This document shows positions 3,001 to 6,000 of a stretch of DNA of 12,375 nt, one piece after another. Within the stretch, counting starts at the first letter, position 1; the number at the start of each line of letters is the position of its first letter. This DNA is from a virus. Its lineage: Duplodnaviria > Heunggongvirae > Uroviricota > Caudoviricetes. The stretch spans positions 1-12,375 of IMG/VR virus record IMGVR_UViG_2526164613_000021, one strand, 5' to 3'. Made by a program: the position numbers.

Positions 3001-6000
3001 TTACCACATCCTTATACCCTGAACATCTGTAGCATTTCATATAAGCAACTGGCAGTTAACATATAGCTTGGGTAATATTTATTTCACTTATCCTTTATGA
3101 CAAAGTTTCCTTTGGTTTGGTCATAAATACATTGTTCTTGACTTACAATCATTGATGACGTTATTGGTTCTCGTGTTAGCGGGTGCTTCCCACCGTCGCG
3201 AACCAAATGAGAAAAAGAAACCGAATCAAATAAGGTACAAACCAAAGAACCTTCTGAATTTTTAACAAACACACCTTCTTCTGGTTTATCCAGTATAATT
3301 GGGCATCGAACCGCCTCGGATGGACACTGAAGGCTCTCCGTATTAACAGAAAACTTACATTGTGATATTTTCCCCTCAATATCACCATGTGATTGTGTGT
3401 TACCTGAACCTGAAACCATTCTTAACATTATATCCCTGAGCGCTTCAGGACCACCATTAAGCCCTGTAAGTAATAATCCAGAAAGCAAACTGTTATTGCC
3501 CCCACTCGCCAGAAAGCGACCATCCGTTTCACTATATGTGATACGGACCGTCTGCCCGCCTACTGTAATTTCTCCACCGCCACTGGCGGCCATTTGAGCA
3601 CGAAGAACCTGCATTCCGGTGGAAAATGAATTGGATGCAATAGCTGATGTTAACGGCATGACAAAACTCCTGGATTTGCCCCTATATTTCCAGACATCTG
3701 TTATCACTTAACCCATTACAAGCCCACTGCCGCAGATATTCCCGTGGCGAGCGATAACCCAGCGCACTATGCGGATGCCATTCGTTATAATGCTCGAACG
3801 CCTCTGCAAGGTTCTTTGCTGCCGTTAACCCGTCTGGTTTGGGCATGATACTGATGTAGTCACGCTTTATCGTTTTCACGAAGCTCTCTGCTATTCCGTT
3901 ACTCTCCGGACTCCGCACCGCCGTGTTCTTCGGTTCAAGTCCCAACATCCGGGCGAACTGGCGTGTTTCATTAGCCCGGTAGCATGAACCATTATCCGTC
4001 AGCCACTCCACTGGAGACGACGGAAGATCGTTGCCGAAGCGGCGTTCCACCGCTCCCAGCATGACGTCCTGTACTGTTTCACTGTTGAAGCCGCCGGTAG
4101 TCACCGCCCAGTGCAGTGCCTCACGATCACAGCAGTCCAGCGCGAACGTGACACGCAGTCTCTCTCCGTTATCACAGCAGAACTCGAACCCGTCAGAGCA
4201 CCATCGCTGATTGCTTTCTTTCACGGCCACTCTGCCTGTATGTGCCCGTTTCGATGGCGGTACAGTAGGTTTTCGCTCAAGCAACAGCGCATTCTGGCGC
4301 ATGATCCGGTAAACACGTTTGGCATTGATCGCAGGCATACCATCAAGTTCTGCCTGTCTGCGAAGCAGCGCCCATACCCGACGATAACCATACGTGGGCA
4401 GCTCTCCGATAACATGGTGTATACGGAGAAGCACATCCGTATCATCAGTGTGACGACTGCGGCGGCCATCCATCCAGTCATCGGTTCGTCTGAGAATGAC
4501 GTACAACTGCGCACGCGACACCCGGAGACAACGGCTGACTAAGCTTACTCCCCCTCCCCGGGCAATAAGGGCGCGTGCGCTATCCACTTTTTTGCCCGTC
4601 CATATTCAACGGCTTCTTTGAGGAGTTCATTTTCCATCGTTTTCTTGCCGAGCAGGCGCTGGAGTTCTTTAATCTGCTTCATGGCGGCAGCAAGTTCAGA
4701 GGCAGGAACAACCTGTTCTCCGGCGGCGACAGCAGTAAGACTTCCTTCCTGGTATTGCTTACGCCAGAGAAATAACTGGCTGGCTGCTACACCATGTTGC
4801 CGGGCAACGAGGGAGACCGTCATCCCCGGTTCAAAGCTCTGCTGAACAATTGCGATCTTTTCCTGTGTGGTACGCCGTCTGCGTTTCTCCGGCCCTAAGA
4901 CATCAATCATCTGTTCTCCAATGACTAGTCTAAAAACTAGTATTAAGACTATCACTTATTTAAGTGATACTGGTTGTCTGGAGATTCAGGGGGCCAGTCT
5001 AACTCCCTATTTAAATATTCATTCCAAACACAGGGAGTCATAACAAACAGCCCCCATACATGACAACAAAAACCGGAGCCGGACTCCGGTTTTTGTGAAG
5101 CTGTCGGGCTATTTCATCCCGCCAATATTTTCCCACGTCCCGTCAGCACGCAGGATTTGCAGCGGTCTTACCACGCACTGTATCTGCTTTTTATCCGCAT
5201 CCAGTATCACCACCTGCGTGATTACCCTGTCCTGCTCCGGGATAATACCATTCTCATCGGACTCCAGAATGTCTGCCGGTCCCAGTCGCAGCTGTGCTGT
5301 AAGTAACTCCCCGTTTTCACGGTCATCATGCTTTCCGCAACCGCACAGACGCTGCATAATTTTTTTTAATATGTTCATGTCATTCTCCTGTTCTGCCTGT
5401 ATCACTGCCCACTTCATCCAGCCCCTTAACATCCTGCCACGGCCCGTCACCAAACCTGACCTGCAAATGCTGAAAAAAACCCTGAACCCGTGTGGCATCT
5501 TTGGGGTCAAGAAAGGTCAGTCCGGTGATGAGTGCGCCATCTGTATCCGGGAACCAGCCATGGCTGTTTGTCTCAATAATGTTTCCCGGCCCCAGACGGA
5601 ACCGTATTTGCGTCTCCCCCGGGTCGCCCTTCGGCCCCTGAGGTCCGGTTGCCCCCACCGGGCCAGCCGCACCTGTTTCTCCTTTCGGTCCCTGTGGGCC
5701 TGCCGGGCCTGCCGGACCAGCATCACCTGCCGGCCCCCTTTCACCGGTTGCCCCTGCCGGACCGGTGTCTCCACGCTCTCCTTTATCTCCCTTCGGCCCC
5801 TGAGGACCCGCGGGCCCCTGCTCCCCCTTTGGCCCGGGAGGCCCCACCACCGTGGGGATTCGGTTTACGGCCTCTTCCGCCGCTATCCTGCTTTGTTCCG
5901 CTGACTGTGCGCTTTCTGCTGACTCCCGGGCTTTTTCTGTTGCGGTCGTTGCATCCCTGGCTGCATTACCGGCTGCACTTTCTGCCGTCTTTTTTGACAA

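What the first reader, a model, noticed from the sequence alone, without database searches (positions are those of the whole stretch)
5109..5382. Unrecognised 89-aa protein coupled to the tail fibre gene
The gene starts inside a TGAcATG overlap with the stf stop codon and uses a Shine-Dalgarno embedded in the stf 3' end, so it is almost certainly co-expressed with the fibre. It contains a CGCG motif near the N-terminus and does not resemble lambda Tfa as far as I can recall. The position suggests a fibre chaperone or accessory factor, but that is positional inference only. Its 3' end is the sequence duplicated at 2904-3010.
Basis: inference. Interest (0 to 1): 0.35.

Follow-up and report, generated by a model that had tools for sequence, protein, structure and literature searches.

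The report
Free-standing copy of fibre tip domain
The 89-residue gene after the prophage tail-fibre gene is real and conserved, and it encodes a separate copy of the fibre's own tip domain that always travels with that tip; databases already list the family, but nobody has tested what it does.

Summary
The ORF is real. It lies on the minus strand (ATG 5378-5376, TAG 5111-5109) and starts 1 nt after the stf stop, with an AGGAG 6 nt upstream. It is not unrecognised. Residues 28-89 match Pfam PF06820 (Phage_fiber_C, E 5e-36), the domain that also ends the Stf itself. The whole protein matches PHROG 576, and RefSeq names it WP_001023362.1. It is under strong purifying selection: dN/dS is 0.10 overall and 0.05 in the domain, against 0.19 for the fibre's own tip. 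It co-occurs essentially 1:1 with PfC-tipped fibres: 296 vs 296 phage records, 698 vs 697 E. coli genomes, and 80 of 80 loci. The tip, the small gene and a hairpin are shared between siphoviral side fibres and the podoviral lateral fibre of Stx2 phages. A diverged Salmonella prophage has the same pair. The duplication therefore predates that split. My best reading is a cognate fibre-tip accessory protein, more likely a docked cap than a folding chaperone. This mechanism is inferred, not shown. The 3' duplication is confirmed at 2829-2997 as a frameshifted remnant next to an NleG effector gene. Interest is modest.

The parts
5109..5378 (-). Small gene: 89 codons plus TAG. RefSeq WP_001023362.1, 'phage tail fiber C-terminal domain-containing protein'.
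   Evidence: dN/dS 0.098 over 56 alleles. PHROG 576, E 4e-60.
5298..5378 (-). N-terminal extension, residues 1-27 (MNILKKIMQRLCGCGKHDDRENGELLT). It holds the CGCG motif and an A8 run at codons 4-7. The model puts a short helix at residues 3-11, then a low-confidence segment.
   Evidence: AF2 pLDDT is below 50 for residues 4-26. dN/dS 0.21. The Cys residues are not invariant.
5112..5297 (-). PfC (Phage_fiber_C, PF06820) domain of the small protein, residues 28-89. Predicted all-beta with six strands.
   Evidence: Pfam E 5.3e-36. AF2 pLDDT about 80. dN/dS 0.047. The best structural matches are phage tail fibre proteins.
5379..5389 (-). Coupling junction: AGGAG (5389-5385), stf stop TGA (5382-5380) and the 1-nt spacer c (5379).
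   Evidence: Read directly from the sequence. The junction is identical in 79 of 84 copies and nearly so in the rest. The same junction occurs in podovirus VT2-Sakai.
5380..6600 (-). stf: a collagen-like side tail fibre of EPclA type (PfN, coiled coil, collagen, PfC). RefSeq starts it at 6594.
   Evidence: Pfam PF08400, PF01391 and PF06820. RefSeq annotation. Architecture as described in PMC3368898.
5416..5607 (-). PfC domain of Stf (residues 332-395), the paralogue of the small protein (34% identity).
   Evidence: Pfam E 2.8e-35. BLASTP E 7e-11. dN/dS 0.185.
5066..5096 (-). Conserved G+C-rich hairpin with a T run just after the small gene, terminator-like. It marks the end of the conserved module; the sequence beyond it varies.
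   Evidence: Fold -28.5 kcal/mol, z -4.3. Conserved across loci, with divergence about 45 nt after the stop. Also present in the podovirus and in the Salmonella locus.
2829..2997 (-). Degenerate second copy of the small gene's 3' end (from codon ~58) plus its hairpin (2862-2892). It has a 7-nt deletion and lies between two NleG effector genes.
   Evidence: The same remnant lies after the first NleG in 7 other viral loci (L002, L003, L007, L011, L013, L030, L075).
3679..4992 (-). IS2 inserted between the hairpin and the first NleG gene. It is context, not part of the module.
   Evidence: Inverted repeats. RefSeq 'IS3-like element IS2 family transposase'.
3084..3659 (-). NleG-family type III effector gene: variable cargo downstream of the module.
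   Evidence: Pfam PF06416, E 2.8e-45. RefSeq coordinates.
1723..2373 (-). nleG7, a type III effector gene and the second cargo gene.
   Evidence: Pfam PF06416, E 4.7e-48. RefSeq annotation.

Best explanation
The gene encodes a separately translated, free-standing paralogue of the fibre's own C-terminal tip domain (PfC), preceded by a 27-residue N-terminal extension. It is made together with the fibre through translational coupling, and it is the cognate accessory protein of the PfC tip.

My proposed mechanism has two steps. First, like the fibre's PfC, which is an experimentally shown trimerisation knob, the small protein forms a homotrimeric beta knob. Second, that knob docks on the distal PfC knob of the finished fibre as a cap or adaptor, and possibly also helps assembly.

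Shown here: it is a real, strongly constrained protein; it is paralogous to the tip; it is coupled to and strictly co-inherited with PfC-tipped fibres across phage morphotypes and two host genera. Inferred only: trimerisation of the small protein, physical binding to the tip, and retention in the virion.
For: - Paralogy. PF06820 matches both proteins, with 34% identity and E 7e-11.
- Real protein under selection. 83 of 84 copies are intact. dN/dS is 0.098 overall and 0.047 in the domain, against 0.185 for the fibre's own PfC at equal synonymous divergence.
- Coupling. AGGAG and a 1-nt spacer are kept in 83 of 84 copies. The Salmonella version has AGGAGG and a 14-nt overlap.
- Strict co-occurrence. 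In loci retrieved through the fibre PfC, 77 of 80 have the full gene immediately downstream, 1 is cut by a contig end and 2 are IS-disrupted after codon 3. The phage collection holds 296 vs 296 records. Complete E. coli genomes give 698 vs 697.
- Modular transfer with the tip. The podoviral 645-aa lateral fibre of VT2-Sakai shares its last 151 aa at 91% identity (the last ~90 aa are identical), plus the small gene, the junction and the hairpin. The N-terminal parts are only 36% identical.
- Old partnership. A Salmonella enterica prophage has a non-collagen fibre ending in PfC followed by a 62-64% identical small gene. Small-to-small identity is 64%, tip-to-tip 40% and small-to-tip 30-34%.
- PfC is a trimeric knob. 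The isolated domain is a trimer by SEC-MALLS (PMC3368898).
- Fold. The AF2 domain model's best matches are phage tail fibre proteins, with 60 aligned residues at rmsd 2.7-3.4 Å. The best PDB match is the Mu fibre in its complex with its chaperone.
- Always a separate polypeptide. No natural fibre-small fusion appears among 1.84 billion representatives.
Against: - No direct evidence of binding, trimerisation of this protein or presence in virions. The papers I could read on phi24B and EHEC phages do not report it.
- The structural matches are weak (E 0.008-0.16), and only one of five AF2 models was reasonable (mean pLDDT 66.9).
- A receptor-binding cap would usually be more variable than this protein is.
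- The strict linkage could partly reflect short physical distance and recent spread of one module, because most copies are more than 90% identical. The Salmonella pair is the only deep comparison.
Confidence: 0.4

Rival explanations
1. Transient assembly chaperone. The small PfC protein occupies the slot that tfa occupies after lambda stf. It templates or stabilises trimerisation of the fibre's PfC knob and nucleation of the collagen helix, and is then released, so it is absent from virions.
For: - It lies immediately downstream of the fibre gene, is translationally coupled to it, and no Tfa-type gene is present at the locus.
- It is transferred together with the tip.
- It is very conserved rather than diversifying.
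- In the published work, PfC alone failed to express without a thioredoxin fusion, and recombinant fibre preparations also contained monomer and aggregates (PMC3368898).
Against: - Recombinant full-length fibre, Col-PfC and Trx-PfC all formed trimers in laboratory E. coli without this gene, and Col-PfC refolded on its own after heating (PMC3368898).
- There is no sequence relationship to Tfa/Caudo_TAP families.
- A chaperone that has the same fold as its client would be unusual.
Confidence: 0.22
2. Alternate or spare fibre tip. The gene supplies a second C-terminal domain that replaces the fibre's own PfC, either by recombination or deletion between the two PfC-coding segments or by a shift into its reading frame. 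This is the reading implied by the GenBank label 'atfT: alternate tail fiber tip'.
For: - GenBank KU977419 annotates it this way, as a longer ORF overlapping the fibre gene.
- In the window its frame is open for 44 codons upstream (ORF 5109-5510).
- Rare database chimeras exist. P0063 is collagen joined to the small protein's PfC, and P0127 is the small N-terminus joined to the fibre's PfC.
Against: - The gene has its own conserved Shine-Dalgarno sequence and ATG, and a selected N-terminal extension with dN/dS 0.21.
- GAA-TGA-C is not a good +1 slippery site (read from the sequence).
- In the Salmonella orthologue a stop lies two codons before the ATG, so an upstream frameshift fusion is not conserved.
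- The chimeras are singletons or tiny clusters.
- No fibre-small fusion appears among 1.84 billion representative proteins.
- I found no paper supporting the label.
Confidence: 0.08
3. The protein acts in the host cell or lysogen rather than in the virion. Possible roles are exclusion, regulation or a link to type III secretion, suggested by its position next to effector genes and its restriction to attaching-effacing pathogens and Salmonella.
For: - In siphoviral prophages it is the last conserved gene before variable effector cargo: NleG, NleC, NleH, NleB and NleF.
- The family is confined to E. coli, E. albertii, C. rodentium and Salmonella enterica.
- The Salmonella locus also has NleG- and SopA-like genes downstream.
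Against: - In podoviral Stx phages the same gene sits in the middle of the structural operon, with no effector genes among the annotated genes downstream.
- It lies upstream of the hairpin, on the fibre side.
- No hydrophobic signal region or proper lipobox is visible by inspection.
- It has no defence-family match.
- Its only domain is a fibre domain.
- Its taxonomic range equals that of PfC-tipped fibres.
Confidence: 0.1
4. It is merely a conserved recombination anchor or a decaying duplicate. On this reading the sequence is kept because homologous exchange of downstream effector cassettes uses it, not because the protein works.
For: - Truncated 3' copies with the hairpin flank effector genes in the window and in 7 other viral loci.
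- E. coli genomes hold about 1,000 more places for the small gene than for the fibre PfC.
- Many truncated forms are in the databases.
Against: - Synonymous diversity is as high as in neighbouring genes (pS 0.115), but non-synonymous change is tenfold lower. This pattern indicates selection on the protein, not on the DNA.
- 83 of 84 full-length copies are intact.
- The Salmonella orthologue is intact at 64% identity.
Confidence: 0.03

Closest known systems
PfC (Phage_fiber_C, PF06820) domain of EHEC prophage collagen-like fibres EPclA/EPclB (Ghosh et al. 2012, PMC3368898)
   Same: Same domain family, matched far above the Pfam threshold. The domain is predicted all-beta, in line with the published circular-dichroism result of little helix. 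The published domain is a trimerisation knob about 7 nm across at the fibre's distal end.
   Different: Here the domain is a separate 89-residue polypeptide with a 27-residue N-terminal extension and no collagen or attachment domain. It is only 34% identical to the fibre's own PfC and forms its own orthologous group. The 2012 paper does not mention it.
Lambda Tfa / Mu and P2 tail fibre assembly proteins (Caudo_TAP; Mu fibre-chaperone complex, PDB 5yvq)
   Same: The gene is immediately downstream of the fibre gene and is exchanged together with the fibre's distal part. By established knowledge of those systems, the product acts on the fibre tip, and the Mu protein stays bound there.
   Different: There is no sequence match to these families. 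It is half their size. It is a paralogue of the tip itself rather than an unrelated fold. The fibre can trimerise without it.
T2/S16-type gp38 adhesins that sit on the tip of the long tail fibre
   Same: A small protein encoded after the distal fibre gene that, in those phages, is the outermost element of the fibre.
   Different: No homology was detected. gp38 adhesins carry hypervariable receptor-binding loops, whereas this protein is more conserved than the fibre tip.
GenBank annotation 'atfT, alternate tail fiber tip' in Stx1 phage AU5Stx1 (KU977419)
   Same: It is the same gene (95.5% identical product) in the same position after the fibre gene.
   Different: That label implies replacement of the fibre's tip and uses a longer overlapping ORF. 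The conserved Shine-Dalgarno sequence and ATG, and the stop just upstream in Salmonella, argue for an independent 79-89-residue protein.

Membership tests
Pfam PF06820 Phage_fiber_C | HMM score above the curated gathering threshold (25 bits) | tested here: met
   123.2 bits, E 5.3e-36. Residues 28-89 cover profile positions 1-64 of 64.
PHROG 576 (labelled 'tail fiber protein') | Full-length match to the family profile | tested here: met
   E 4e-60, 1-89 of 89 positions. The label is an annotation, not a tested function.
EPcl collagen-like prophage fibres (EPclA-D) | Collagen Gly-X-Y region and an N-terminal fibre attachment domain (PfN) | tested here: not met
   Pfam finds only PF06820 in the small protein. 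PF01391 and PF08400 are in the upstream Stf.
EPcl collagen-like prophage fibres (EPclA-D) | Trimerisation through the PfC domain | not testable with these tools
   Shown for the fibre's PfC in PMC3368898.
Tail fibre assembly proteins (lambda Tfa / Caudo_TAP type) | Sequence membership in the family | tested here: not met
   No Pfam, NCBIfam or PHROG match other than PfC families at E<=1.
Tail fibre assembly proteins (lambda Tfa / Caudo_TAP type) | Gene immediately downstream of the fibre gene and co-inherited with the fibre's distal part | tested here: met
   80 of 80 loci, 296 vs 296 phage records, and shared between siphoviral and podoviral fibres.
Tail fibre assembly proteins (lambda Tfa / Caudo_TAP type) | Required for fibre trimerisation or folding | not testable with these tools
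   Published recombinant fibre trimerises without it (PMC3368898), which argues against an absolute requirement.
gp38-type tip adhesins | Sequence membership, and hypervariable receptor-binding segments | tested here: not met
   No family match. pN is 0.006 in the domain, lower than in the fibre tip.
Intramolecular chaperone domains of fibres and spikes (Peptidase_S74 type) | Sequence membership, and location as a cleaved C-terminal part of the fibre | tested here: not met
   No Pfam match. It is a separate gene.
Exchangeable effector locus cargo / type III effectors | Variable gene downstream of the late-operon end, absent from phages without effector cargo | tested here: not met
   The gene lies upstream of the conserved hairpin and is invariant, whereas the cargo varies. 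It is present mid-operon in podoviral Stx phages.
Phage exclusion lipoproteins (Cor/Llp type) | Signal peptide with a hydrophobic core and a lipobox | tested here: not met
   By inspection of MNILKKIMQRLCGCGK there is no hydrophobic core before the Cys residues. No dedicated predictor was available.
Known anti-phage defence proteins (PADLOC) | Match to any model | tested here: not met
   0 families at E<=1.

The most novel reading that the evidence does not exclude
The conserved collagen-like fibres of Stx and effector-carrying prophages end in two stacked paralogous knobs. One is covalent (the fibre's PfC). The other is a free trimer of this 89-residue protein, which arose by duplication of the tip and is the actual outermost, ligand-contacting element. 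This would be a kind of fibre accessory protein not derived from the Tfa or gp38 lineages. It would give a concrete candidate for the unknown function of the lateral fibres of Stx phages, which the phi24B cryo-EM preprint lists as an open question.
Probability: 0.2. Interest if true: 0.6.

Novelty: new variant of a known kind. Interest (0 to 1): 0.35.

Why it matters
PfC-tipped fibres are carried by the phages that spread Shiga toxin genes and by the prophages that carry type III effector genes. There is a median of 10-11 copies per EHEC-type genome. What these fibres bind, and even why they are conserved, remains unsettled: the phi24B cryo-EM preprint could not resolve the C-terminal knob and asks what the lateral fibres are for.

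A small protein that always accompanies the tip and is more constrained than the tip itself is an obvious missing piece for any adsorption or host-range study of these phages. It is easy to test. It also marks the fixed left edge of the exchangeable effector loci, which helps to define how effector cassettes are swapped. If it proves to be just a helper for folding, the result is ordinary.

Tried and rejected
1. Sequence searches for a solved structure found nothing meaningful, with either the single sequence or the family profile.
2. NCBIfam and PADLOC gave no match.
4. A stf-small fusion by +1 frameshift or read-through was considered and rejected. The small frame is +1 relative to stf and open for 44 codons upstream in the window. 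However, GAA-TGA-C re-pairs poorly, the Salmonella orthologue has a stop two codons before its ATG, and no fused protein exists in the large libraries.
5. A lipoprotein or signal peptide was rejected by inspection. The CGCG motif as a metal or lipid site has weak support because neither Cys is invariant.
6. A profile scan of species-representative genomes with a mixed PfC alignment failed for lack of conserved stretches. The narrower scan found only E. albertii and a 725-bp contig in a Xanthomonas assembly.
7. Literature searches for the 'alternate tail fiber tip' label and for locus tags found no functional study. Supplements of an EHEC phage proteomics paper and an EHEC secretome paper did not list the protein.
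8. The simple terminator scan did not flag the hairpin after the gene, but folding shows it clearly.
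Full report
**What is there**

The window is identical to part of a defective lambdoid prophage inserted at ydfJ in E. coli O55:H7 strain DEC5B (NZ_CP038389.1, 100% over all 12,375 bases). Everything relevant is on the minus strand, in this order:
- J (7326-10802)
- lom (6659-7258)
- stf (5380-6594/6600)
- the small gene (5109-5378)
- a G+C-rich hairpin (5096-5066)
- an IS2 insertion (about 3679-4992)
- an NleG-family effector gene (3084-3659)
- a degenerate copy of the small gene's 3' end with its hairpin (2829-2997)
- nleG7 (1723-2373)
- an IS256-family transposase gene

The small ORF is intact and encodes 89 residues. The stf stop TGA is at 5382-5380, followed by a single c (5379) and the ATG (5378-5376). 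The two genes therefore abut and do not overlap. An AGGAG lies 6 nt upstream of the ATG, inside stf.

**It is not an unrecognised protein**

Residues 28-89 match Pfam PF06820 (Phage_fiber_C) at E 5.3e-36 over the full profile. The same family matches residues 332-395 of the Stf encoded just upstream, at E 2.8e-35. The two copies are 34% identical (E 7e-11). The whole protein matches PHROG 576 end to end (E 4e-60). RefSeq already names it 'phage tail fiber C-terminal domain-containing protein'. So the gene is a free-standing paralogue of the fibre's own tip domain, with a 27-residue N-terminal extension. It has no match to Tfa-type or any other family, to defence families or to a solved structure by sequence.

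**It is a working gene**

In 80 viral contigs retrieved through it, 83 of 84 full-length copies are intact. The junction GAGAATGAC|ATG is kept in 83 of 84. There are 56 nucleotide alleles but only 27 protein alleles. Nei-Gojobori dN/dS values are as follows:

| Region | dN/dS |
|---|---|
| Small gene, whole | 0.098 |
| Small gene, N-terminal 27 codons | 0.21 |
| Small gene, PfC domain | 0.047 |
| Fibre's own PfC | 0.185 |
| Fibre's N-terminal domain | 0.106 |

Synonymous diversity is the same in all of these regions (pS 0.10-0.12). This rules out a dead duplicate, and it rules out conservation at the DNA level only.

**It belongs to the fibre tip**

1. Loci retrieved through the fibre's PfC (80 loci). 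77 have the complete small gene directly downstream. One is cut by the contig end. In two the gene is interrupted after codon 3 by an insertion whose end looks like an IS66-family repeat. No locus lacks the gene natively.
2. Phage genomes. Among 50,697 phage genomes, 296 carry the small protein and 296 carry the fibre PfC, with matching organism breakdown.
3. Complete E. coli genomes. Among 5,426 genomes the counts are 698 and 697, with a median of 11 and 10 places per genome.
4. Podoviral Stx phages. The same gene, junction and hairpin follow the 645-residue lateral fibre of short-tailed Stx phages (VT2-Sakai, 933W, AU5Stx1). There it lies in the middle of the structural operon, with no effector genes among the annotated genes downstream. 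That fibre and the window's Stf share the last 151 residues at 91% identity, and the last ~90 residues are identical. Their N-terminal parts are only 36% identical. The unit exchanged between morphotypes is therefore the distal shaft, the PfC, the small gene and the hairpin.
5. Salmonella. A Salmonella enterica prophage has a non-collagen fibre ending in PfC. An overlapping 79-residue orthologue with its own AGGAGG follows, then a hairpin, then effector-like genes. Identities are 64% small-to-small, 40% tip-to-tip and 30-34% small-to-tip. The duplication therefore predates that split, both copies were kept, and the small copy evolves more slowly.

**Structure**

The AF2 model has mean pLDDT 66.9, and only one of five models was reasonable. 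It gives a low-confidence N-terminus (residues 4-26 below 50, with a short helix at 3-11) and a six-stranded all-beta domain at pLDDT about 80. In a library of predicted viral structures, 8 of the top 12 matches are named tail fibre proteins or YomR; five of those align 59-60 residues at rmsd 2.7-3.4 Å with E between 0.008 and 0.16. The best match among solved structures is the Mu tail fibre in its complex with its chaperone (E 0.055). These matches are weak, but all point to a fibre-type domain.

**Published data on the domain**

Ghosh et al. (PMC3368898) showed several things about the PfC of this fibre type:
- It is a trimerisation module that forms a knob of about 7 nm.
- Col-PfC refolds on its own after heating.
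- The full fibre forms trimeric dumbbells when expressed alone in laboratory E. coli.
- PfC alone did not express without a thioredoxin fusion.
- The paper does not mention the small gene.

A 2026 cryo-EM preprint on phi24B could not resolve the lateral fibre's C-terminal knob. It lists the function of these conserved fibres as an open question and does not discuss the small gene. One GenBank record labels the gene 'alternate tail fiber tip'. I found no paper behind that label.

**Explanation**

The best-supported reading is a cognate accessory protein of the PfC tip, made in step with the fibre. I favour a homotrimeric knob that docks on the fibre's distal knob as a cap or adaptor (confidence about 0.4 for the accessory role with this mechanism). 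My reasons are that the fibre can fold without it and that the protein is always kept as a separate polypeptide. No natural fusion is seen among 1.84 billion representative proteins.

The rivals, in order:
- A transient Tfa-like chaperone is the main rival (0.22).
- The 'alternate tip' idea (0.08) is weakened by the conserved independent start, by the stop two codons upstream of the ATG in Salmonella and by the rarity of chimeras.
- A host-directed or effector-linked role (0.1) is weakened by the podoviral context.
- A mere recombination anchor (0.03) is contradicted by the dN/dS values.

Binding, trimerisation of this protein and its presence in virions are all untested.

**The duplicate**

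The second copy (2829-2997) begins at about codon 58 and includes the stop and the hairpin. It is about 88% identical and has a 7-nt deletion. The same remnant follows the first NleG gene in seven other viral loci (L002, L003, L007, L011, L013, L030, L075). Downstream of the hairpin the sequence diverges within about 45 nt into variable cargo:
- NleG in at least 33 loci
- NleC, NleH, NleB and NleF, confirmed by Pfam
- an NleA-like protein, identified from my recall of its sequence only, with no Pfam hit

The small gene and its hairpin are thus the fixed edge of the exchangeable effector loci. Its 3' end seems to have served as a crossover point when effector cassettes were stacked. This last step is an inference.

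**Verdict**

The gene is real, conserved and already catalogued, but its function is untested. 'Unrecognised' and 'overlap' were wrong, and the paralogy with the fibre tip was missed. Interest is moderate to low (0.35). In kind, I rate it a new variant of the known class of fibre accessory proteins.

Noticed in passing
window 2829-2997, with NleG genes at 3084-3659 and 1723-2373: Each NleG gene is preceded by a full or truncated 3' end of the small gene plus its hairpin. E. coli genomes hold about 1,000 more places for the small gene than for the fibre PfC. This suggests the gene's 3' end and hairpin act as a crossover point when effector cassettes are stacked or exchanged.
   Followed up: partly
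window 3679-4992: A complete IS2, with its inverted repeats, is inserted between the late-operon hairpin and the start of the first NleG gene. It may separate that effector gene from its upstream sequences. A related Stx2 phage (WGPS2) has an IS2 inside an NleG homologue instead.
   Followed up: no
window 10990-12375 and L001 14066-17997: The prophage is defective. Minor tail protein L is truncated, the tape measure gene is frameshifted, and the genes normally found between L and J are missing, according to the RefSeq annotation.
   Followed up: no
window 5356-5367 (codons 4-7 of the small gene): There is a run of eight A (TTAAAAAAAATT) near the 5' end of the gene. Some database proteins (P0036, P0256) look like frame slips around this run. 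Whether it has any regulatory role is unknown.
   Followed up: no
window 5109-5510, minus strand: The small gene's frame is open for 44 codons upstream, overlapping the stf 3' end in the +1 frame. This is why some records annotate a 129-133-residue ORF. The extension is not conserved in Salmonella, where a stop lies two codons before the ATG.
   Followed up: yes
proteins P0127 and P0063 (E. coli assemblies): Rare natural chimeras exist between the two paralogues. P0127 joins the small protein's N-terminus to the fibre's PfC C-terminus. P0063 joins collagen repeats directly to the small protein's PfC. These are evidence of occasional recombination between the two copies.
   Followed up: partly
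protein P0145 (565 aa, representative library): A collagen-like phage fibre protein from an unknown source carries four tandem PfC-like repeats upstream of its collagen region. The domain can therefore also occur as an internal repeat rather than a terminal knob.
   Followed up: no
L163 (NZ_JPLE01000138.1, 725 bp, Xanthomonas pisi DSM 18956 assembly): A 725-bp contig in a Xanthomonas genome assembly encodes a 93% identical copy of this E. coli prophage protein. This is most likely contamination of that assembly.
   Followed up: no
L101 2735-2833 and L150 2735-2876: In two viral contigs the small gene is interrupted after codon 3 by an insertion starting GTAAGCGGCTCG, which looks like the end of an IS66-family element. 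This is a natural knockout of the gene in otherwise similar loci.
   Followed up: partly
window 6612-6631 and 7288-7307, minus strand: Terminator-like hairpins also follow lom and J. The late genes here are thus separated by several hairpins, which would require antiterminated transcription to read through.
   Followed up: no
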